Positions 3,744-19,150 of a stretch of 64,000 nucleotides of DNA are shown here, one piece after another (positions within the stretch are counted from its first letter, which is position 1; every line of letters starts with the position of its first letter). The notes below the pieces were generated by a model, which saw nothing but the letters and a program-made list of their open reading frames with translations, made no database searches and was not told where the DNA came from. The stretch is from a phage. The position numbers and the translations under genes were made by a program. The stretch lies in sequence record PV357172.2; one strand, written 5' to 3'.

Positions 3744-4634
3744 TTATACCAAATCTTTAAGCGATTCAGCAACTAAAATTTCAATACGTTTTGCTAACAT
3801 ATCAATTTCATCTTTGTTTAAATCACCCGGATCTTTGCCTTCGGGCAGAAGAAAGTTAGCAACTACAGGTGTTAAACGCGTTTTTGTACGAATTAACTTG
3901 GCCAATGCTTGTGCAGCTTTATTACCAGAAGCATCATTATCTAGTAAGATAACAACAACTTTTACACCGGCAATAATATAAGGACTGAACTTATCTGCAA
4001 TGTTATCCGAAGTAAACTGATGTGTACCAAAGCAGCAAGAAGCATAGTCTATACCATTATCCTCTAGGTTCAGCATATCAAAGATACCTTCAACTAGAAT
4101 AAGAACTGGAGTATTATATCGTACAGGGAAAATCGGTGGTGAAACTTGTTTTGGTTTTACTAAGTATTTAGGAGGGGCAGAACTGTTTATAGAACGACCC
4201 AAAAATAGGATATTGCGTCCAACAGCATCTGTGATTGGGAATACAATTCTGCCTTCCCAGTCTGCTTGATGTTGGAAAGCAAAATATTTCTTCAAGGTCT
4301 TAGAACTTATACCTCGGAAATCACCTTCGAAAAGGCAAGCAGATTCAGGAATTGCAAGATTCGTTGATCCATTCCTAATCTCTGAAATCTTTTTACGTAC
4401 TTGCGATAGTCTTGGGGACTGTCGGTACTGAGTCTCATTAAAATAATGGTAAATGCTCGGTATACCTTTACCGAAGCCACAACTCAAGCAGTGCATAATA
4501 CCTGTTTCAGGATCAATACGCAAACTTGGGTGTTTATCGTCATGATCTGGATTGAGACAACAGATGAGGATGTCCCCACCTGTGTCTTTATATTCAATGC
4601 CTTTCAGATCAAGTAGTTCTGTTATTCTACTCAT
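3744..4634 (-). CDS. DNA primase (zinc-binding domain plus TOPRIM)
   Basis: N-terminal Cys/His cluster (CCLNPDHDDKHPS...HCLSCG); TOPRIM-like LVEGIFDMLNLEDNG. Confidence 0.65.
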   Translation of the reverse strand: MSRITELLDLKGIEYKDTGGDILICCLNPDHDDKHPSLRIDPETGIMHCLSCGFGKGIPSIYHYFNETQYRQSPRLSQVRKKISEIRNGSTNLAIPESACLFEGDFRGISSKTLKKYFAFQHQADWEGRIVFPITDAVGRNILFLGRSINSSAPPKYLVKPKQVSPPIFPVRYNTPVLILVEGIFDMLNLEDNGIDYASCCFGTHQFTSDNIADKFSPYIIAGVKVVVILLDNDASGNKAAQALAKLIRTKTRLTPVVANFLLPEGKDPGDLNKDEIDMLAKRIEILVAESLKDLV

Positions 4635-6103
4635 ATATCGCTGGCCTGTTCACCTGTTGAATTTTCAGCTTTGTCTTTCTTAGCACGTTTAGGTTGAGCC
4701 GGCTTATCCTTCTCAATAGGGATAACGAACTCAGCTTCCATTTGAGATATATCTTCCATTGCTAGGTTGGTAGTGTTATCCATCTGCAGGGTTTCCCAGT
4801 TCATCTTAGGCATAAACTTCACGCTATCAGAAGAACGGGTCTTAACGAAGTCAAACATAATAGCACCTTGACCATTATCAGCTTTTGCAGCATTAAGATT
4901 AGCAGCCATGTCTGCGGAATCAAGAATCCCCTTTGACATACGTGTTCTACCATCTTGATCGATCTGGTAAGGAGCTACTCCAGCCACGTTATGTTTCTGG
5001 CAGATGGATTTGAAAGATGAACTAACAACCATCTGTTCTTTCCAGTCATACATATCAATGGTCTTTGAATCTGGAAGTCTTGTTTGGTTAATATAGTCTA
5101 GAAGAGCTACAGTAACCTTATCACCATATTTAGCAACTAGTTTATTTAATTCTACGTCAACCGTCGTAATAGACAGTTCAGGATCGTAAACGATGATCAT
5201 AGGAGTGTGAAGCTCATAGCCTTCAAGGAGTTTACTTTCCATATCATAGAAGTCACTCATTTTAGCCATAGTGTATTGCTTAACGAAGTTATCGAAAAGC
5301 TCTTCACCACCATTAAACATTCTAGCCCTAGTTCTGGCTAATCTCAACAGAGCAGCACCTTCAAGAGTGTTATTACGCATTGCTAATGCAGATACTCCAG
5401 CTAACATAGCCAGATTACGTCTAAACACTTCGTGCTCTTTCATCTCAATTGAGAAATATGGAGCAATGTCTCCATTCAAATATTGCTGAACCTGTATGTT
5501 TGAACAGATAATGGATTTACCAGTACCACGCCAACCACCAAGCAGTAACGTTTCTGTGCGAGCTAAACCAATTTGAGCGTCGAACTCATTACAAATACCA
5601 AGAGCGATTAAGTTCAGTTTGGTATCTTCTTCTCTCTGGAAAATACGCATTGTGTCTGCGTTGAATACCTTTCCAGTATTCGTTACTTTCTCTTCTAATT
5701 TTAAGTGAAGGGAGGCAACTCGGTTGAGAATTTCTCCCTGATCCAGCATTGTTAAATCTTGAAGCACGTCTGTTTCTAGAAGCTTCAGGAATAAATCCTG
5801 TGTATATTCGGCCTCTAGGACTTCAAGTGCCTGTTCCATGCTAACTTCTGGAATTTGAGTGTTAGCTAAAACGACTAGAGCTTGAGAAAGGCGGGCGTTC
5901 CTATTAGCCTCAAGCATCAGTGCGTCAATGGATGGCATTGTGTTATATTTTTTATAATAATTCTGGACGGCTTGGTAAATTGAGGAGAAAGCGTCATTAA
6001 AATGATCTTTATGCAGTTTTGAGAATGTTTCCAATGCTATTTGCTTCTGTTCGGAAGCTAGAAGCATCTTCAACACTACAGCTTGCACGTTAAACAAGGT
6101 CAT
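4631..6103 (-). CDS. replicative helicase-like P-loop ATPase (DnaB/RecA fold)
   Basis: Walker A GGWRGTGKS; start moved to ATG at 6103 preceded by AAAGGAGA. Confidence 0.55.
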   Translation of the reverse strand: MTLFNVQAVVLKMLLASEQKQIALETFSKLHKDHFNDAFSSIYQAVQNYYKKYNTMPSIDALMLEANRNARLSQALVVLANTQIPEVSMEQALEVLEAEYTQDLFLKLLETDVLQDLTMLDQGEILNRVASLHLKLEEKVTNTGKVFNADTMRIFQREEDTKLNLIALGICNEFDAQIGLARTETLLLGGWRGTGKSIICSNIQVQQYLNGDIAPYFSIEMKEHEVFRRNLAMLAGVSALAMRNNTLEGAALLRLARTRARMFNGGEELFDNFVKQYTMAKMSDFYDMESKLLEGYELHTPMIIVYDPELSITTVDVELNKLVAKYGDKVTVALLDYINQTRLPDSKTIDMYDWKEQMVVSSSFKSICQKHNVAGVAPYQIDQDGRTRMSKGILDSADMAANLNAAKADNGQGAIMFDFVKTRSSDSVKFMPKMNWETLQMDNTTNLAMEDISQMEAEFVIPIEKDKPAQPKRAKKDKAENSTGEQASDI

Positions 6104-6134
6104 TCTCCTTTGCACGCTTTCGTGCCTTCTAAAT

Positions 6135-6168
6135 GCAAAAAGGGGAAGGAGCATAGCCCCCTCCCCTT
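6135..6168 (-). terminator. rho-independent terminator (minus strand)
   Basis: GC-rich hairpin GGGGAGGGGG...CCTTCCCC followed by TTTTTGCATTT on minus strand, just downstream of gene ending at 6186. Confidence 0.55.
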
Positions 6169-6185
6169 AGGTTTAATTTACCAGA

Positions 6186-6953
6186 TTATTCAGCAGCCGC
6201 AGCTTTTGCATCCAGTTTAGCACGCTTAGCGGCACCATCATAGTCCTTAGCAACCAGACCACGACGAGACAGCATAGATTTAACACCGCGCTCAGATTTA
6301 CCAGTTTTCTCAGCGATCTCAGCAACAGTCATGTTAACCAGATCCAGACCTTCTAACAGATCTTCACGAGTTTTAGCACTCGAGGTTTCCTGTACCGGCA
6401 TAGCGGCGATACGACCTTCACGAAGCAGACTCAGAGCTTTACCACGGATCTGCTTGATATTACGACCGAAGTGAGCAGCGATAGCTTCAATAGTAGCACC
6501 AGCAACAACCTGATTAACAAAATCAGTTTCTTCATCCGGAGTGAAGGAACGAACAGCAGCAGCTTTTTCAGTTGGTTTAACAGAAGCGGTCATTTCCAGA
6601 CTCAGGATCTTACCCTGTACCTGCTTAGCACCGAACTGACCACCAGCTACAGCAGCAGCGATTTCAGCATAGGTATACTGACCAGCATGAGCGTTCAGGA
6701 AATCAACCAGTTCAGCTTCCTGCTCAGGAGTCCACGGAGATTTCTGCACTTCGTTAGCTTTCTGTACTTCAAAACCTTCTTTACGCAGTTTAGAGCCAAC
6801 AGAGCGGGCAGTAACATCTTTGCCAGTTTCAGCAGCCAGTTCAGCAGCAATAGCAGCTACTTGTTCTTGAGAGATTACAGCAACACCCAGAGCAGTGGCT
6901 TTTGCTTTCAGAGACTCGGTTACACCTTCTACGTTCCAGTTCAGTTTAGACAT
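6186..6953 (-). CDS. DNA-binding protein with three HTH-like repeats
   Basis: Three internal repeats (TYAEIAAAVAGG, TIEAIAAHFGRN, TVAEIAEKTGKS); GC-rich, strongly E. coli-like codon bias suggesting high expression. Confidence 0.5.
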   Translation of the reverse strand: MSKLNWNVEGVTESLKAKATALGVAVISQEQVAAIAAELAAETGKDVTARSVGSKLRKEGFEVQKANEVQKSPWTPEQEAELVDFLNAHAGQYTYAEIAAAVAGGQFGAKQVQGKILSLEMTASVKPTEKAAAVRSFTPDEETDFVNQVVAGATIEAIAAHFGRNIKQIRGKALSLLREGRIAAMPVQETSSAKTREDLLEGLDLVNMTVAEIAEKTGKSERGVKSMLSRRGLVAKDYDGAAKRAKLDAKAAAAE

Positions 6954-11933: not shown

Positions 11934-12171
11934 TTTCTTTAATCAATTCTCCTAATTCTCTATAGATTTGATCTAACTCAAAAGATATACGTAGTGATAT
12001 GCTTTGCTTTCTCTGCTTTAGCAACCATGCGCCTATGCCATTTATGGATGCTAGTCTAGCAGGAACCACCCTACATAGCTTCTCCGAAGTATCATAAACA
12101 GGAACTTTGCGTTCTTTTACTGGAAACTTCCTTGTTTCCCATTTTTTATTCTTCACTGTCATTTCTAGCAC
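11911..12171 (-). CDS. hypothetical protein (86 aa)
   Basis: ORF track; overlaps neighbours by a few codons. Confidence 0.4.
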   Translation of the reverse strand: MLEMTVKNKKWETRKFPVKERKVPVYDTSEKLCRVVPARLASINGIGAWLLKQRKQSISLRISFELDQIYRELGELIKENDNTGRG

Positions 12172-15013
12172 CTAGCTCTGACATTGCTTCCTCGTGCATC
12201 TGACGTTCTTCCTCTGTCATGAATTTGAAAGGAATTGGCATACACTCGATTTTACAATAGGTTCTGTACCAGTCTACGATATTCTCCGTGTTCATATCTT
12301 TACCAATACCCATCATACCAAGATACATTCTAGCATATTTTGGGTTAGCACTCTGACCTGTTTTAAGGAAGAAATCTTTCTTCTTACCTTTCAGAGCTTC
12401 TATGAAAGGTTTGATAGTGACATTTGAACACTTCTTAATATCTTCCCAGAACATCTCATGCATCTTATGGAAGAATGCAGCTCGATCATTCGGCTTATCT
12501 TTGATATATTGTTCAACATGCTCAACGGTTACATCTTTAATAGACTCCAGATGATAATAGCGAACAAGAAGTAGTTTAGCTTCATACGCATCCGCATGAC
12601 GTGGAGCACAATAATCAGGAGTTGAGTGCAGAATAGCTTTGATTCGCTCTTCTGTATACTCTTTACCAGCACCTTCAATAGTTCCCCAGCTTTCACTGAA
12701 AATATCAATAGTTGCACCCTGATCAAGTAAGTAATAACGTAAAGTACTAGTATAGTTCCTAGATTCCAGCTCCCTGCGACGTGCGTATAATTGCTGTGCT
12801 AACTCCAGCCAACCCTCATCAATATTATATTGTTCAGAACCTGCGGAGAATCCACTAGTGGATTTATCAATAAAATAATAGATATTCTGAGCACCACGGT
12901 CGCGCCTGATTGCTTGGAAACGCATGTTTGGCGCTTGATTACTGGTTCTAGTAATAACAAATACGTTATCAAAATAGTTGAAGTCAACTCCACTCGTTAC
13001 GGATGGACTACATAATAAGCAATCAATTTGTTGATCAATTAGCTCATTAGTTGTATAATCCAGAATACGTCGAATATCCACATCTGAGGTAGAGTTTGAA
13101 TGGATTTCCTTAACTAACGCACCCGTATTACGACGCAGTGCCATACCCTTCTCATTCAGTTCATCCGGTCCACAGTCAGATACTAGGATAGATTTTTCAC
13201 CCATCTCTAGAGATGTCTGAAGTGCAACCCAAATACTGGATTCATCCGGGAACTCATAAGCATGAGCTTTTGATAGCATTTTACGGTGATGATTATAGAA
13301 TGCAACTGGTTTATCGAACTCAATCAAAGAACCATATGCTTCAATTGTTTCAGCACTAATATCACCATCTGATAGTATAATGATTTTTGCAGTTGCAAGA
13401 ATATCACGAAGAACCTGAATACACTCACGACGTTGTTTAACAACCGGGGCGAATAATAGGTCATTCATTACTGCATCACATTCATCGATAAAGATTGCAT
13501 CAATTTGACCAATAAAACTCTTGAACTTATGCAAAGAGTGAATAGTTGTGGACATACGGTCAATAGCACCACGCTTAAAATTAAGCATATCTACAGACTT
13601 ATCATATTGTCCTGCACTAAATTTCTTGGCATTTGAAGACACCAGTGCTCTAGTATTGGTAATTGCTAAGAAATTACCTTTAATAACTCCTGAATCCAGC
13701 CAACGAACAACAGCCGTTGTTTTACCTGTGCCTAGACTTGCTTTTACAAAAGTCATATAGCCTTCTGGTGGTACAGTATTTAATTTCAAGAAGTTGTCGG
13801 TCTCTAGTGAATTAGTTTCTAGCTTTTTAAGTGGAATACCTTTTAAAATATCCGGTATATCACGTTTAGAATTATTAACAAACGCTTTCAGAGCCTGCTT
13901 ACGACCGTTGTTAAAGTAATCTTGAATATTACGACTATTATCTTTAGTTGCAATATATTCTGATAAGGCTGGACGGATTTCTTTTTCTAGCCATGCGAAG
14001 TCAACACCATCCTCTAAAGCTCTGTGATAGAGTTTAGGTATGATACGTAGGTACACTCCATCCTCAGCTTCTTCTAGTTCGCTGATAGTTTCCTCTACTT
14101 TATCAGAGGCAGCTTTTTTACCTTTAATTTGATCGAGTAAAGAGTAAAACTCCTCTTTAAACTCACCTCTAGTTGTTTCATAATCAACTAGATTATTGGG
14201 TAAGTTTACCTTAGAACCCTTAACAAATACCAGACGTGAAGCACCCTCCGCTTTAAACGGATCTACTATACCATCATTAAATAACGGATCTGCAAAATAA
14301 TGGAGCTGTACGGAAGAGTAATAAGCTAAGTCGGCAATATCAAAGCCATACTTTTGTCTACTACTTTCGTTGATAGATGTAAATAAGAATTTGATTTGAC
14401 CCTGAGTCACTTTAATATTAGATTCTAGTATTAAGTGCATTCGGATACCTGGTTTTAGCCCGGCCGAAGACGATGCATGAGCGATAAACCCTGCATCAAG
14501 AGGAAACATATCCTCACTAATACTATTTAACATTCTAATAATATGTCGAGCCATGCCAACAAGATCAAACTTGTTACAACCACCTGTATCTACAATACCA
14601 TCCACGTCCATTGCGATTATATGACTTGGGTTAGATACATTAAAGTTGCCCTTCTTACGTCGCACATTATTTTTAGGTGCAAGACATCGACCTCGTACCG
14701 CAACGATATGAGGGTCAGACGTTAAACGTCTCATAAGAGGAAGCATTTCTACTAGGGTTTGAGGATCAACTTCATCAATTACATCAAACTTGAAGGGCAT
14801 TGAAGCTGGTTTACCTTCAGGATGCTTTGAGGAAAATCTTTTAGCAAAAAGATAATCTTCTGCTTTAACTTCTCGCCAATTACCTGTGGCTAAATCGCGA
14901 TGAAATCCTGCATGACCTTGTAGGATTGAGAACACAACAATACTCCTGTGTTGGAAATGAAATAAGTTTTCTTTAGGACTATTCAGAAAGAATAGAACAA
15001 CTGTTACTGTCAA
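12146..15013 (-). CDS. large helicase-like ATPase, candidate replication initiator (start uncertain)
   Basis: 955-aa ORF (track start is TTG); Walker A SLGTGKTT and Walker B-like FIDECD; adjacent to TCAC-repeat noncoding region. Confidence 0.55.
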   Translation of the reverse strand: MTVTVVLFFLNSPKENLFHFQHRSIVVFSILQGHAGFHRDLATGNWREVKAEDYLFAKRFSSKHPEGKPASMPFKFDVIDEVDPQTLVEMLPLMRRLTSDPHIVAVRGRCLAPKNNVRRKKGNFNVSNPSHIIAMDVDGIVDTGGCNKFDLVGMARHIIRMLNSISEDMFPLDAGFIAHASSSAGLKPGIRMHLILESNIKVTQGQIKFLFTSINESSRQKYGFDIADLAYYSSVQLHYFADPLFNDGIVDPFKAEGASRLVFVKGSKVNLPNNLVDYETTRGEFKEEFYSLLDQIKGKKAASDKVEETISELEEAEDGVYLRIIPKLYHRALEDGVDFAWLEKEIRPALSEYIATKDNSRNIQDYFNNGRKQALKAFVNNSKRDIPDILKGIPLKKLETNSLETDNFLKLNTVPPEGYMTFVKASLGTGKTTAVVRWLDSGVIKGNFLAITNTRALVSSNAKKFSAGQYDKSVDMLNFKRGAIDRMSTTIHSLHKFKSFIGQIDAIFIDECDAVMNDLLFAPVVKQRRECIQVLRDILATAKIIILSDGDISAETIEAYGSLIEFDKPVAFYNHHRKMLSKAHAYEFPDESSIWVALQTSLEMGEKSILVSDCGPDELNEKGMALRRNTGALVKEIHSNSTSDVDIRRILDYTTNELIDQQIDCLLCSPSVTSGVDFNYFDNVFVITRTSNQAPNMRFQAIRRDRGAQNIYYFIDKSTSGFSAGSEQYNIDEGWLELAQQLYARRRELESRNYTSTLRYYLLDQGATIDIFSESWGTIEGAGKEYTEERIKAILHSTPDYCAPRHADAYEAKLLLVRYYHLESIKDVTVEHVEQYIKDKPNDRAAFFHKMHEMFWEDIKKCSNVTIKPFIEALKGKKKDFFLKTGQSANPKYARMYLGMMGIGKDMNTENIVDWYRTYCKIECMPIPFKFMTEEERQMHEEAMSELGARNDSEE

Positions 15014-15470: not shown

Positions 15471-15923
15471 TTACTGGATTGATTCCCTACCGTATAATTG
15501 ACCTCTAAACATCTTGGCCATAGAACATGCAACCTCATAGTTATCATATGTTCCTTTAACTATACGTTTACGGTTAATAGTAAATACTACTTGCCAGTTC
15601 TTACTACCAGAAGGGTAAACATGCATTCCTTTCTTATACTTGATATTTCTTAGATTACCGGATACTGTCTGCTCTCTAAGATTTTCAATACGATCATCAC
15701 CTTTTACAGTATTCACATGATCTACTAAATCAGGTAAGTATCCGTGATGCATTAAGAAGATAGCTCTGTGTCGGAGCATAGTTCTACTCCCTAGAGAAAT
15801 ACGGTAATAACCATTTCCCGTTGAAACACAACATTCCTTGCCTGCATTTCTTCCTGTAGTTCTAAATAATTTTCCATCTTCATATCGGAAATTATCTAAA
15901 AGTTCCTGTTGTGTGAGCGACAT
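15471..15923 (-). CDS. HNH homing endonuclease
   Basis: HNH motif HHGYLPDLVDHVNTVKGDDRIENL; start set at ATG 15923 preceded by GGAGG. Confidence 0.7.
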   Translation of the reverse strand: MSLTQQELLDNFRYEDGKLFRTTGRNAGKECCVSTGNGYYRISLGSRTMLRHRAIFLMHHGYLPDLVDHVNTVKGDDRIENLREQTVSGNLRNIKYKKGMHVYPSGSKNWQVVFTINRKRIVKGTYDNYEVACSMAKMFRGQLYGRESIQ

Positions 15924-16062
15924 CTTTACCTCCAATACATATATTATTACATAATCCACCCAATTTGTCAATGACAATTTATTCATACTGTCAATTAACT
16001 GGAAAGATTATATAATAATCCGAGCCAAAATGACTCGGTAGTCAGAGTTCAGCTAATAAAAA

Positions 16063-16455
16063 TCATTCATCATTCAGACCTGGAACATAGATCCCAACAT
16101 GGTTTAACTGTTCTTTAGCTTCTTTGAGAATATCTGGAGTGTACTCCCAAATATCATCTTCCACCTGTAAAAGATGGGGCGAACAACCATCATCAGGCAT
16201 ACGACATATAGCCAAACCACGTGGATGGAACAAAGAGAAATTTAGGGCAACAATTAAACCCATAGCAGACAACTCATTCCAATCCAATTCCCATTCCCTA
16301 GCGTAGCCTGATAGGAAAACACCAATACAGGGATCGTCTATTTGCTGCTCCGGAAAAGTGAAGGAGGCTTGTCTTACCCCCAACCAACGTTGTAGCAGCT
16401 TCTCCGCACGCTTCACCAAACTAGGATCAATCTGACGCCAATATACTTGTTCCAT
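16063..16455 (-). CDS. hypothetical protein, tandem paralog A (130 aa)
   Basis: Shares PCIG...ELD...MGL..ALN..LF.P motifs with adjacent ORF. Confidence 0.5.
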   Translation of the reverse strand: MEQVYWRQIDPSLVKRAEKLLQRWLGVRQASFTFPEQQIDDPCIGVFLSGYAREWELDWNELSAMGLIVALNFSLFHPRGLAICRMPDDGCSPHLLQVEDDIWEYTPDILKEAKEQLNHVGIYVPGLNDE

Positions 16456-16464
16456 TCTGCCTCC

Positions 16465-16893
16465 TTAAGCAGTTAAATCTGGGATCATATACCCGAAACG
16501 TCGAAGTTTCTGAATCCCCTCATTTACTTCTTCCGGTGAATAAGACCAACCATAACGTTCATTAACCTGAAAACCAGGAGATTCACTAGTTTTATAGTTA
16601 ACAACTAGGCGATGCTTAGCAGGCATAAACAGCTTATAATTTAACGCAAAAACTAAGCCCATTTCATCTAACTCTTTCCAGCCTACAATCTCTTCAAGAC
16701 CCTCCTCTACCTGAACAATTAAACCAATACAGGGGGCCTCATCAATATCATCTTTAAAAGCAAAGGAGATTTCATTATTCTCACACCATATTTTCAAGGA
16801 GTTAATAGCCTCATTATACAGGCTAGCTGGGAGAGTACGCCAAAAGTTAATCAAAATTGGATTAGCTTCTTTAGAGAATACATTATTGAACAT
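16465..16893 (-). CDS. hypothetical protein, tandem paralog B (142 aa)
   Basis: Paralog of 16063-16455. Confidence 0.5.
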   Translation of the reverse strand: MFNNVFSKEANPILINFWRTLPASLYNEAINSLKIWCENNEISFAFKDDIDEAPCIGLIVQVEEGLEEIVGWKELDEMGLVFALNYKLFMPAKHRLVVNYKTSESPGFQVNERYGWSYSPEEVNEGIQKLRRFGYMIPDLTA

Positions 16894-16895
16894 AT

Positions 16896-17402
16896 TTACA
16901 CCTTAAATTGTTGTAAGGATTTACACATTTCAAGATCTGGGCTAAATTCTAGCATATAGCTAACAGCTTTTAAATCTTGAAGATTTATCCCAGTCCTACC
17001 GTTGACTATAACCGTTGGATACTGATACATCATAGCACCCGCATCATCAAGCACACACCAATGTTTGAGCTTATGCTTTTCAACGAAACGAAGAACAGAA
17101 TTACCCCTAGATAATCCACCCCCCGTAAAATCCGTTGTACCAAGAAAACGATCGATAAGACCTAATCCGGTCATAATCTGAACGTTCTCCATCTCATTTC
17201 TAACAGAGAACCAAGATGATACCCCAACAATCATTATCGGAGAAGGACGAATAAAATCCTGAAAAGCCTTGAGAAGCGGTTTGAAAACCCAGTCACTTCC
17301 AAAGAAAATCTTTTCATTATCAGGTGCATGATGGTGGGAGATGCTCGAATTGAGCACCCCATCAATATCTAGAAAAATAATTGGAGTATTACTTATTTCC
17401 AT
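16896..17402 (-). CDS. HAD-superfamily hydrolase-like protein (putative phosphatase/nucleotidase)
   Basis: HAD motif I IIFLDIDGVL near N-terminus. Confidence 0.5.
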   Translation of the reverse strand: MEISNTPIIFLDIDGVLNSSISHHHAPDNEKIFFGSDWVFKPLLKAFQDFIRPSPIMIVGVSSWFSVRNEMENVQIMTGLGLIDRFLGTTDFTGGGLSRGNSVLRFVEKHKLKHWCVLDDAGAMMYQYPTVIVNGRTGINLQDLKAVSYMLEFSPDLEMCKSLQQFKV

Positions 17403-17571
17403 TTTTGTTCCTTTCTAAGAACGTATCATACTCAACCGTATCAACATATATGACGCCATAGTCATCGGATTTATAGTCCATTTCCCATAACTCACATCGA
17501 TAGCACCAACTACCATCTGCCCATACAAATATATCATCGGGATGTGTATATACAGATTTAACTATGGACAT
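17389..17571 (-). CDS. hypothetical protein (60 aa)
   Basis: ORF track; overlaps flanking genes by 14 nt. Confidence 0.35.
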   Translation of the reverse strand: MSIVKSVYTHPDDIFVWADGSWCYRCELWEMDYKSDDYGVIYVDTVEYDTFLERNKNGNK

Positions 17572-18394
17572 ATCTGTTTACCTTGCTTCTCGACACATAA
17601 GGTCTACCCTCTAAATGAGCTTCTACACGAGCAATAAAATCAGGATCACTGAAAGCATCTACCGCACCTTTACTCCAGTAAGGGATACCACGTTCTTCCA
17701 GCTGGTACATCTCACTACGAGTCATACCTTGATAGCCCGGTTCTGCCGCTAGGCCACTATCATAGTAGTTAACAACCATAAGTTTCGCAGCAGTCAAATT
17801 AAGAACAGGAAATAATTCCCAGTAGAAGTTAATTACTTGGTTAGAGCAACCAACCACAATGATCATATCTTGACTGGTAATACCATCAAAAACATTATAC
17901 ATTTCTGCGTATGCAGGAGCATGTTCTCCAAAGAAGATTACATTAGGTTTAACCCATTTATAATCATCTGGATCAATAGAATTATACCCTACATCAATAA
18001 TCCGTTTATTGCTACTATTGTAGCTATCAGCTACAACAACCTCTTTTAAATATCCGTGAATGTGCAGAATGTCACTATGTGGAACACCAGCACGCTCAAT
18101 AAGGTCATCAACGTTGGTAGTCAAGTTTACTACTTGACCTGGGTATTGTTTATACCATTCACCAATACGCAAATGCGCAAGATTGGGTTCAACAGTTTTT
18201 AGCTCTTCACGACGCTTGTTGTAAAACATATGGGTTTTATGATAAAAATTACCACGAAAGGCATGAATATTACATACTTCTTCTAGATCATAATCATCCC
18301 ACAATGCTTTACCACTAGCAGTATCAGTACGGAAGGCTCGTACACCACTTTCAACGCTCAAACCTGCACCGCTAATAATAATTAATCTACGCAC
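17558..18394 (-). CDS. Sir2-family (sirtuin-like) NAD-binding protein
   Basis: Sirtuin motifs ISGAGLSVESGVRAFR, TTNVDDLIERAG, HIHGYL, FFGE, VVGCS; no obvious Cys4 zinc ribbon. Confidence 0.65.
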   Translation of the reverse strand: MRRLIIISGAGLSVESGVRAFRTDTASGKALWDDYDLEEVCNIHAFRGNFYHKTHMFYNKRREELKTVEPNLAHLRIGEWYKQYPGQVVNLTTNVDDLIERAGVPHSDILHIHGYLKEVVVADSYNSSNKRIIDVGYNSIDPDDYKWVKPNVIFFGEHAPAYAEMYNVFDGITSQDMIIVVGCSNQVINFYWELFPVLNLTAAKLMVVNYYDSGLAAEPGYQGMTRSEMYQLEERGIPYWSKGAVDAFSDPDFIARVEAHLEGRPYVSRSKVNRYVHS

Positions 18395-18588
18395 TATACG
18401 ATTCCTCGCTTAAATCCTTCGATAATATTTCGGAGTAAAATTGCTTCCTCCGGGCGTACCTTTTCTTGCTTAATAAGCATATCCAATCCAGCAATACAAC
18501 TAGTTACACCAGCATTATAACCAGAGTTCCATTGCTCAATGAGCATGTTTTCTAGATTACTTTTTAGATTCTGATTCAAGAAGTCCAT
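18394..18588 (-). CDS. hypothetical protein (64 aa)
   Basis: ORF track. Confidence 0.35.
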   Translation of the reverse strand: MDFLNQNLKSNLENMLIEQWNSGYNAGVTSCIAGLDMLIKQEKVRPEEAILLRNIIEGFKRGIV

Positions 18589-18760
18589 AAAGTCTCTCCT
18601 CTAATTCCATAATACGATTTTCATAAGAGGCACGCAACTTTTCAATTGCCAGCGCACGCACTGTAACCTCATTAGAGTTAATAGCTAATTGGGCCAGATC
18701 TTCTGTTTCCATACGTCCGTTGTAAATTAAGCGATATTTAAGATGTTTTACGTTTTTCAT
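18557..18760 (-). CDS. hypothetical protein (67 aa)
   Basis: ORF track. Confidence 0.35.
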   Translation of the reverse strand: MKNVKHLKYRLIYNGRMETEDLAQLAINSNEVTVRALAIEKLRASYENRIMELEERLYGLLESESKK

Positions 18761-18769
18761 TCTTGTTCC

Positions 18770-19051
18770 TTAGTTCTGTACTGTAAATTCATTCTTATCA
18801 CAGTGAGCGTAATAATACCCATACATGCGATAAATTTTCACAGCCTTAGTAGACCCCTTCGATTCTTCATAATCAATCCAGAGCCACTTGTCTTTACCTA
18901 CATAATGTACCCGAAACTTCTTAACTTTCTTATCATTCCATGTTGCAACAACACGACGATAATCAAATCCACCCAACCAATCTAGAGCCTTACGTTCTTC
19001 ACTAGGCCCTCCAAGATGGGAGACATCTACTTTAGGAAGCAACTCGCTCAT
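18770..19051 (-). CDS. hypothetical protein (93 aa)
   Basis: ORF track; promoter-like module upstream at 19052-19150 on minus strand. Confidence 0.45.
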   Translation of the reverse strand: MSELLPKVDVSHLGGPSEERKALDWLGGFDYRRVVATWNDKKVKKFRVHYVGKDKWLWIDYEESKGSTKAVKIYRMYGYYYAHCDKNEFTVQN

Positions 19052-19150
19052 AGCTTTCTCCTCTCAAATTTATAAATCAATTATACATAAATTTTTGGCT
19101 GAAAGCAAATAAAATAAAAGCCAGGTCGACTAGCAACCTGGCTGATTAGC

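What the first reader, a model, noticed from the sequence alone, without database searches (positions are those of the whole stretch)
16063..16893. Tandem pair of divergent paralogous genes of unknown function
Adjacent ORFs of 130 and 142 aa share a conserved core (PCIG, EL-D/E, MGL, ALN, LF-P, GY..P-L) but are otherwise diverged. Tandem duplication with divergence in a phage accessory region is typical of genes under host-interaction pressure, such as anti-defence or superinfection functions.
Basis: seen in the sequence. Interest (0 to 1): 0.45.

Follow-up and report, generated by a model that had tools for sequence, protein, structure and literature searches.

The report
Conserved T5-phage DUF7415 paralogue pair
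Two neighbouring small genes in a T5-like phage are true, ancient duplicates from an uncharacterised phage-only protein family (DUF7415); one copy keeps the family's signature residues and the other has lost them, they are a fixed part of the phage's early gene set rather than a variable accessory cassette, and what they do is still unknown.

Summary
ORFs 16063-16455 (A, 130 aa) and 16465-16893 (B, 142 aa), both on the minus strand, are paralogues (BLASTP E=3e-18, 31% identity, z=27 against shuffles). The window is a T5-like phage, and the genes are orthologues of T5.107 and T5.106. Both belong to Pfam DUF7415 and PHROG 2502, which have no known function.

They are the last two, translationally coupled cistrons of an early operon (small ORFs, Sir2, orf60, HAD, B, A, terminator) that lies between nrdD and the replication-origin-binding protein gene. 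About 513 of 526 matching phage records carry both copies.

A keeps the family signature (66 bits against a single-module profile). B has lost most near-invariant residues (25 bits). T5-like lineages with a single copy keep the canonical form. Both genes are under purifying selection (dN/dS 0.08-0.24) but accumulate amino-acid changes 2.5-4 times faster than their neighbours.

My best guess, with low confidence, is an intact/degenerate heteromer that binds or processes a nucleotide-type ligand. An anti-defence role is neither supported nor excluded.

The parts
16465..16893 (-). Gene B (142 aa). Orthologue of T5.106. DUF7415 paralogue with a degenerate family signature.
   Evidence: ORF. Pfam DUF7415 at 123 bits. 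PHROG 2502. 91% amino-acid identity to T5.106. Only 25 bits against the single-module profile.
16063..16455 (-). Gene A (130 aa). Orthologue of T5.107. DUF7415 paralogue with the intact family signature.
   Evidence: ORF. Pfam DUF7415 at 108 bits. 66 bits against the single-module profile. AlphaFold2 pLDDT 96, pTM 0.89.
16129..16287 (-). Canonical DUF7415 core in A (aa 57-109): LDWNELSAMGLIVALNFSLFHPRGLAICRMPDDGCSPHLLQVEDDIWEYTPDI.
   Evidence: hmmsearch alignment to a profile of 113 single-module proteins. Family consensus IDWNxLSxxGLIxRINxEILHPLGLAxxRxPxTGxSxGxLVxxDGxWEY.
16531..16689 (-). Degenerate core in B (aa 69-121): IVGWKELDEMGLVFALNYKLFMPAKHRLVVNYKTSESPGFQVNERYGWSYSPE. Substitutions at conserved family positions include N to K, S to D and H to M, and the G-L-A, R and G positions are also lost.
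16456..16464 (-). Junction between B and A. The mRNA reads TAA-GGAGGCAGA-ATG, so a GGAGG Shine-Dalgarno sequence sits directly after the B stop codon, 4 nt before the A start codon.
   Evidence: Read from the sequence.
16891..16898 (-). Junction between HAD and B. The HAD stop TAA is separated from the B start ATG by 2 nt, which is consistent with translational coupling.
   Evidence: Read from the sequence.
16020..16038 (-). Terminator-like hairpin 25 nt downstream of the A stop codon, marking the end of the operon.
   Evidence: T5 has an annotated rho-independent terminator at the equivalent place.
16896..17402 (-). Upstream cistron: HAD-family phosphatase (HAD_SAK_2), orthologue of T5.105.
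   Evidence: Pfam PF18143, E=7e-20.
17389..17571 (-). 60-aa ORF (orthologue of T5.104) that overlaps both of its neighbours.
   Evidence: PHROG 5116.
17558..18394 (-). Sir2-family (CobB-like) protein, orthologue of T5.102. It lies upstream of the DUF7415 gene or genes in every T5-like lineage examined.
   Evidence: Pfam SIR2, E=8e-25. NCBIfam deacylase models match below their thresholds. Synteny.
18394..19051 (-). Three small ORFs of unknown function at the start of the operon (93, 67 and 64 aa).
19119..19143 (-). Strong terminator-like hairpin (10 bp stem followed by a T tract) upstream of the operon, downstream of nrdD.
   Evidence: T5 annotation has a terminator after nrdD.

Best explanation
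SHOWN. A and B are the T5.107 and T5.106 orthologues of a T5-like phage. They are an ancient, fixed tandem duplication of a DUF7415-family gene. They form the last two, tightly coupled cistrons of an early operon (Sir2, orf60, HAD, B, A, terminator) that lies between nrdD and the origin-binding protein gene. The downstream copy A keeps all near-invariant residues of the family's roughly 50-residue alpha+beta core. The upstream copy B has lost most of them, yet it is itself strongly conserved. T5-like lineages with a single copy keep the canonical form.

INFERRED. A is the functional ligand-binding or catalytic unit. B is a degenerate ('pseudo') partner that has taken on a new structural or regulatory role, most likely within an A-B hetero-oligomer made in fixed proportion through translational coupling.

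The ligand is most likely a nucleotide-type small molecule. The reasons are as follows. Elsewhere the module is fused to nucleotide-handling domains (PUA-like DUF3850/ASCH, PF04447 dATP/dGTP pyrophosphohydrolase, thymidylate kinase). It sits among nucleotide and nucleic-acid metabolism genes. It carries many invariant polar residues that are conserved across phages of very different hosts. It is uniformly acidic, which argues against direct DNA or RNA binding.

The function is auxiliary or conditional rather than essential for growth on a laboratory host.
For: Paralogy. Orthology and operon structure: and the junction sequences. Near-universal presence of two copies: (1039 places in 526 records).

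Asymmetry: the single-module profile scores A at 66 bits and B at 25 bits. Across lineages, canonical, A-type and single-copy proteins score 52-77 bits and B-type proteins score 10-33 bits. Single-copy T5-like contigs and DU_PP_V carry canonical copies. The tree separates an A clade from a B clade, each containing a Sugarlandvirus member.

B is not decaying: its dN/dS is 0.08-0.12, lower than that of A at 0.23-0.24.

Fusions: DUF3850/ASCH, PF04447, Tmk. Of 80 IMG/VR loci, 20 are DUF3850-type fusions.

Genomic contexts: after nrdD, after rnlA, near NUDIX, and after the P2 replication gene A.

Acidity: pI 4.0-5.2 in all two-repeat proteins tested.

Not among the Fit genes in the T5 CRISPRi-ART screen (bioRxiv 10.1101/2023.09.18.558157, supplementary text S3).
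Against: There is no direct evidence for any ligand, for an A-B interaction or for catalysis.

The fusion partners are few in number and are mostly small prophage domains that are themselves uncharacterised. The gene contexts may reflect inherited gene order within phage families rather than a functional link. Outside T5-like phages, Sir2 is never within 5-6 kb of the module, and HAD is only once, in Aeh1.

Acidity together with early expression fits protein-binding inhibitors equally well.

dS is near saturation, so the dN/dS values are rough. The neighbour-joining tree has no support values.
Confidence: 0.35

Rival explanations
1. Anti-defence or host-takeover inhibitors. A and/or B are small acidic early proteins that bind and block a host protein, such as an immune sensor or effector or a DNA-binding factor, or that sequester an immune signalling nucleotide. 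The paralogues would have diverged to cover different targets.
Against: The pair is fixed in the lineage and syntenic, not patchy. Gene-wide selection is purifying. There is no PADLOC hit, and no similarity to solved Acr, Tad, Acb or Ocr-type structures. Ten or so polar residues are conserved from Vibrio to Klebsiella phages, which is unusual for inhibitors of fast-evolving host proteins. The known anti-defence island of T5-like phages is elsewhere.
Confidence: 0.25
2. Replication-initiation accessory factors. DUF7415 proteins would work with the phage replication initiator (T5.108 origin-binding protein, or gpA in P2-like phages), for example by modulating origin loading or recruiting host replication proteins.
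For: The pair lies directly upstream of the origin-binding protein gene in all T5-like lineages examined. In 46 of 80 IMG/VR loci the module lies just downstream of a Phage_GPA replication protein, at offset -1 in 38 of them and at -2 or +2 in the rest, on the same strand.
Against: In T5 and in this window a terminator, and in this window also an HNH homing-endonuclease gene, separates the pair from the origin-binding gene. In T4-like phages the module is not next to replication genes. P2 itself has only DUF3850 in that slot and still replicates. The adjacency may simply be inherited gene order. The genes are not Fit in the T5 knock-down screen, whereas replication genes are.
Confidence: 0.1
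3. B is a decaying, redundant duplicate on its way to becoming a pseudogene, and only A matters.
For: B has lost most of the family's near-invariant residues.
Against: B is intact in more than 500 genomes. Its dN/dS of 0.08-0.12 is lower than that of A. It has its own strongly conserved motifs, and its C-terminal tail is shared with the Sugarlandvirus B-type copy. It folds confidently in AlphaFold2 (pLDDT 88).
Confidence: 0.03

Closest known systems
Phage T5 genes T5.106 (YP_006934) and T5.107 (YP_006935)
   Same: These are the direct orthologues (91% and 95% amino-acid identity). They have the same order, the same operon (T5.100 to T5.107, with Sir2 as T5.102 and HAD as T5.105) and the same terminator.
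   Different: This window has an HNH homing-endonuclease gene (15471-15986) inserted between A and the origin-binding protein gene, which T5 lacks at this site. Neither T5 gene has a described function.
Pfam DUF7415 (PF24187), with PHROG 2502 (two-part form) and PHROG 3954 (single module)
   Same: Both proteins score far above the Pfam threshold. A carries the full family signature.
   Different: Most family members are single-module proteins of 70-110 aa or fusion proteins. The T5-like proteins have an extra N-terminal half (only weakly similar to the core, hhalign P=7e-4) and a C-terminal helix and tail. B is a degenerate member.
The P2 'Orf91' slot (DUF3850/ASCH, PUA-like proteins downstream of replication gene A)
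   Same: In many P2-like prophages the protein in this slot is a DUF3850-DUF7415 fusion or a DUF7415 protein on its own. The T5 record itself notes similarity of T5.106 to an 'ORF91'.
   Different: P2's own Orf91 is DUF3850 only. The window proteins contain no DUF3850 domain.
Active enzyme or binder paired with a degenerate paralogue (the pseudoenzyme-partner principle)
   Same: One copy keeps all signature residues. The tandem copy has lost them but remains under purifying selection and is co-translated.
   Different: This is an analogy only. No activity or interaction has been shown for either protein.
Phage nucleotide sponges (Tad1, Tad2/DUF2829, Acb2)
   Same: They too are small, acidic, early, phage-restricted proteins spread across unrelated phages. 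This resemblance is recalled from my own knowledge and was not tested here.
   Different: There is no sequence or fold similarity to any solved structure, and no binding data exist.

Membership tests
Pfam DUF7415 (PF24187) | HMM score above the gathering threshold (27 bits) | tested here: met
   A scores 108.2 bits and B scores 123.1 bits, each with two matched stretches.
Pfam DUF7415 (PF24187) | Family-wide core signature W-N-x-x-S-x-x-G-L...N...L-H-P-x-G-L-A..R...G-x-S...D-G-x-W-E-Y | tested here: met
   This is met for A (66 bits against a profile of 113 single-module proteins, with all near-invariant residues present). It is NOT met for B (25 bits; N to K, S to D, H to M, and the G, A, R and G positions lost).
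PHROG 2502 (two-part T5-type form) | Full-length profile match | tested here: met
   E=7.6e-61 for A and 1.2e-61 for B, covering nearly the whole 134-position profile.
VOC / glyoxalase superfamily (considered because of a weak Glyoxalase_4 hit) | Paired beta-alpha-beta-beta-beta modules recognisable by profile or fold | tested here: not met
Exonuclease / tail tube protein (names carried by some GenBank records) | Any sequence or fold similarity to nucleases or tail tube proteins | tested here: not met
Acb1 / 2H phosphoesterase (name given to a single-module homologue in Klebsiella phage Roth27) | Two H-x-T/S motifs and the 2H fold | tested here: not met
Known defence and anti-defence families | Match to PADLOC models or to solved Acr, Tad, Acb or Ocr-type folds | tested here: not met
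Nucleotide-binding or nucleotide-processing protein (functional class, not a sequence family) | Demonstrated binding or turnover of a nucleotide ligand | not testable with these tools
   This is inferred only from domain fusions and gene contexts.
Hetero-oligomer of A and B | Physical interaction between the two proteins | not testable with these tools
   Only co-inheritance and translational coupling are shown. No multimer prediction was available.

The most novel reading that the evidence does not exclude
DUF7415 is a new fold class of phage-encoded small-ligand binder or enzyme. It could, for example, be a sponge or hydrolase for an NAD-derived or cyclic-nucleotide immune signal, or for a Sir2 reaction product. 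In this reading the T5-type pair is a heteromer of one intact and one pseudo-site subunit, and the family is a widespread, so far unrecognised counter-defence or nucleotide-pool-control module found in T5-like, T4-like and P2-like phages.
Probability: 0.15. Interest if true: 0.65.

Novelty: new member of a known kind. Interest (0 to 1): 0.3.

Why it matters
In practical terms this instance is ordinary. It is a near-identical copy of two catalogued hypothetical T5 genes in a conserved early operon.

The wider value lies in the family. DUF7415 is a phage-restricted module of about 50 residues with an unusually strict polar signature. It gives very confident structure predictions that match no solved structure, it recurs across unrelated phage groups, and it is fused to nucleotide-handling domains.

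The T5-type pair offers a natural contrast for experiments: an intact copy next to a degenerate but constrained copy, with single-copy lineages as controls. If the ligand or partner were identified, this would assign a function to a gene set present in more than 500 sequenced T5-like phages, many of them candidates for therapy or biocontrol, and in many prophages. It would also correct misleading database names such as 'exonuclease', 'tail tube protein', 'Sir2' for the HAD gene, and 'Acb1'.

Tried and rejected

(2) Internal duplication of the core within each protein. Pfam reports two stretches per protein, and the order of secondary-structure elements repeats. However, pairwise BLAST of the two halves finds nothing, the single-module HMM does not hit the N-terminal halves, and hhalign gives only P=7e-4 with probability 27%. 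I keep this as weakly supported only.

(3) The 185-aa P2-like variant has an N-terminus with an EEVGE motif that looks MazG-like to me. Pfam, PDB and PHROG did not confirm this.

(4) Functional linkage to Sir2 or HAD beyond T5-like phages. Sir2 is found within 5-6 kb of the module in none of 94 other loci, and HAD only in Aeh1.

(5) Literature searches for DUF7415, T5.106/T5.107 and their accession numbers found nothing relevant. The Rad anti-retron gene and the anti-defence island of T5-like phages are at a different locus.

(6) The afdb50 fold library was unavailable. BFVD returned only other DUF7415 proteins.

(7) The search for related loci with the broad core alignment failed because no stretch was conserved enough. 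The genome-contig scan returned only 8 loci.

(8) Searches for solved relatives by sequence profile found none.

Full report
OBSERVATION. BLASTP between them gives E=3e-18, with 31% identity and 45% positives over 124 residues and one gap. A Smith-Waterman score of 150 compares with 27.4 +/- 4.5 for 1000 shuffles, so z=27. The paralogy is real. No third copy exists in the window.

WHAT THE LOCUS IS. The region is 95-96% identical to T5-like phages of the genus Tequintavirus, such as Kenya-K15 and JLBYU40. In phage T5 itself the orthologues are T5.106 (B) and T5.107 (A). They are annotated as hypothetical proteins and end an early operon: promoter, T5.100, T5.101, Sir2 (T5.102), T5.103, T5.104, T5.105, T5.106, T5.107, rho-independent terminator. 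The replication-origin-binding protein gene T5.108 follows.

The window has the same layout:
- Terminator-like hairpin at 19143-19119, downstream of nrdD.
- Three small ORFs.
- Sir2 (17558-18394).
- A 60-aa ORF.
- A HAD_SAK_2 phosphatase (16896-17402).
- B, then A.
- Terminator-like hairpin at 16038-16020.

The HAD stop and the B start are 2 nt apart. The B stop is followed directly by GGAGG and, 4 nt later, the A start codon. The three genes are therefore probably translated in a coupled way. In this window an HNH homing-endonuclease gene (15471-15986) sits between A and the origin-binding gene.

HOW FIXED THE PAIR IS. A tblastn search with B finds 526 phage records with 1039 matching places, so about 513 records carry both copies. 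The order Sir2, DUF7415, origin-binding protein holds in several lineages:
- Epseptimavirus.
- Sugarlandvirus IME260, with two copies and no HAD.
- Pectobacterium phage DU_PP_V, with one copy and no HAD.
- Metagenomic T5-like contigs. L101 has Sir2, orf60, HAD, one copy, then an unrelated 86-aa ORF. L103 has Sir2 followed by one copy whose start overlaps the Sir2 stop. L104 has a pair.

This is not a variable accessory region. The documented deletable anti-defence island of T5-like phages is in the tRNA region (bioRxiv 10.1101/2023.03.15.532788; PMC10644984).

THE FAMILY. Both proteins belong to Pfam DUF7415 (108 and 123 bits) and PHROG 2502, neither of which has a known function. An exhaustive profile search of 1.84 billion representative proteins found 153 hits at E up to 0.001. 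Most hits match only the C-terminal core and are short stand-alone proteins of 70-110 aa. An alignment of 126 cores gives the signature IDWNxLSxxGLIxRINxEILHPLGLAxxRxPxTGxSxGxLVxxDGxWEY, with G, L, N, H, P, G, A, G, S and Y nearly invariant.

Fusion partners found by Pfam are DUF3850/ASCH (PUA-like), the PF04447 dATP/dGTP pyrophosphohydrolase, thymidylate kinase, Cox, DUF551, PGDYG and a ClpX-type zinc finger.

Among 80 IMG/VR loci:
- 46 have the gene just downstream of a P2-type replication protein gpA, on the same strand.
- 20 are DUF3850-type fusions.
- 11 have another N-terminal domain carrying an EEVGE motif.
- 25 are stand-alone.

P2's own Orf91, which occupies that slot, is DUF3850 alone. 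In T4-like phages the module follows nrdD (KP17), follows rnlA with a HAD gene 2 kb upstream (Aeh1), or lies two genes after a NUDIX gene (Slopekvirus). Outside T5-like phages, Sir2 is never nearby and HAD is nearby only once.

ASYMMETRY OF THE TWO COPIES. A profile built only from single-module proteins scores A at 66 bits and B at 25 bits. A keeps every near-invariant residue. B has N to K, S to D and H to M, and has lost the G-L-A, R and G positions. The pattern is general. A-type and single-copy T5-like proteins score 52-77 bits, and every upstream B-type copy scores 10-33 bits. A neighbour-joining tree separates an A clade from a B clade, each with a Sugarlandvirus member. The canonical single-copy proteins P0048, P0050 and P0051 sit at the base of the B clade. 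The tree has no support values. The duplication therefore predates the divergence of these genera, and one copy lost the signature afterwards.

SELECTION. I compared the window with Eps7 using the Nei-Gojobori method.

| Gene | dN | dN/dS |
|---|---|---|
| B | 0.15 | 0.12 |
| A | 0.24 | 0.23 |
| HAD | 0.059 | 0.056 |
| Origin-binding protein | 0.061 | 0.068 |

Both genes are under purifying selection but accumulate amino-acid changes 2.5-4 times faster than their neighbours. B is more constrained than A, so it is not a decaying copy. dS is about 1, which is near saturation, so the ratios are rough. In A, variation concentrates in an indel-prone loop in the N-terminal half.

FUNCTION: WHAT CAN BE SAID. 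The following points are shown:
- Placement in an early operon.
- Translational coupling.
- Co-inheritance of the two copies.
- One intact and one degenerate copy.
- Acidity throughout the family: pI is 4.6-4.7 for A and B and 4.0-5.2 for all two-repeat relatives.
- Restriction to phages and prophages.
- Fusions to nucleotide-handling domains.
- No PADLOC or NCBIfam match.

In the genome-wide T5 CRISPRi-ART knock-down screen, neither T5.106 nor T5.107 is among the 17 Fit genes or the named Semi-Fit genes, whereas Sir2 (T5.102) and T5.108 are Semi-Fit. The authors caution that precision outside the pre-early region is low (bioRxiv 10.1101/2023.09.18.558157, supplementary text S3).

From this I infer, with low confidence (about 0.35), that A is the working unit. 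It would bind or process a conserved small ligand, most plausibly a nucleotide derivative, and B would be a degenerate partner in a heteromer. The function would be auxiliary rather than essential.

A role with the replication initiator (about 0.1) rests only on adjacency.

COMPARISON WITH WHAT IS KNOWN. The genes are members of a catalogued but uncharacterised family. I found no paper that mentions DUF7415 or these T5 genes. Names attached to homologues in GenBank have no support: 'exonuclease (ACLAME 70)', 'tail tube protein' and 'anti-CBASS Acb1'.

VERDICT. This is an ordinary, already catalogued pair of hypothetical early genes. The modestly interesting feature is an intact and degenerate paralogue pair from a phage-only family that has no solved structural relative. 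Interest is 0.3.

Noticed in passing
window 15471-15986 (minus strand): An HNH_3 homing-endonuclease gene lies between gene A and the origin-binding protein gene. T5 has no gene at this site, only about 0.6 kb of intergenic DNA with a promoter, while JLBYU40 and several other relatives do have one. This is a typical mobile insertion. The mechanical ORF (171 aa) is longer than the 150 aa annotated in JLBYU40.
   Followed up: partly
window 16896-17402; T5 record T5.105; PHROG 18062: This HAD-family phosphatase (Pfam HAD_SAK_2, E=7e-20) is labelled 'Sir2 (NAD-dependent deacetylase)' in the RefSeq T5 record and in PHROG 18062. The label was apparently carried over from the true Sir2 gene two genes upstream.
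   Followed up: partly
GenBank records of relatives (JLBYU40, T5_ev219, ESCO40, GEC_vB_N5, DU_PP_V, Roth27): Orthologues of A are named 'tail tube protein' and orthologues of B are named 'exonuclease (ACLAME 70)'. A single-module homologue in Klebsiella phage Roth27 is named 'anti-CBASS protein acb1'. None of these names is supported by any search done here.
   Followed up: yes
L089 (Klebsiella phage IME260) 4375-4854: The B-type gene is annotated as only 96 aa (4567-4854), but the open frame and the homology extend upstream to give a protein of about 133 aa. The annotated start is probably wrong.
   Followed up: partly
L091 (phage Eps7) 4865-5679: The Sir2 gene appears as two overlapping CDS ('putative transferase' and 'putative Sir2-like protein'). 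This suggests a frameshift or sequencing error in that record.
   Followed up: no
window 17389-17571 (minus strand): This 60-aa ORF (orthologue of T5.104, PHROG 5116) overlaps the end of Sir2 by 14 nt and the start of HAD by 14 nt. It is conserved wherever HAD is present (T5, L101) and absent where HAD is absent (IME260, L103), so it may be functionally tied to the HAD gene.
   Followed up: no
L031, L033, L045-L051, L061, L085 and others (P2-like prophage contigs), gene at about 5659-6216: This 185-aa protein consists of an N-terminal domain with an EEVGE motif (PHROG 24212, no Pfam or PDB match; it looks MazG-like to me) followed by a DUF7415 core. It lies downstream of gpA and upstream of a Dam-like methyltransferase gene.
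   Followed up: partly
window 12146-15013 (minus strand): The mechanical ORF for the origin-binding protein starts at a TTG and is 955 aa long. The T5 and Eps7 orthologues are 928-929 aa, so the real start is probably about 27 codons downstream.
   Followed up: no
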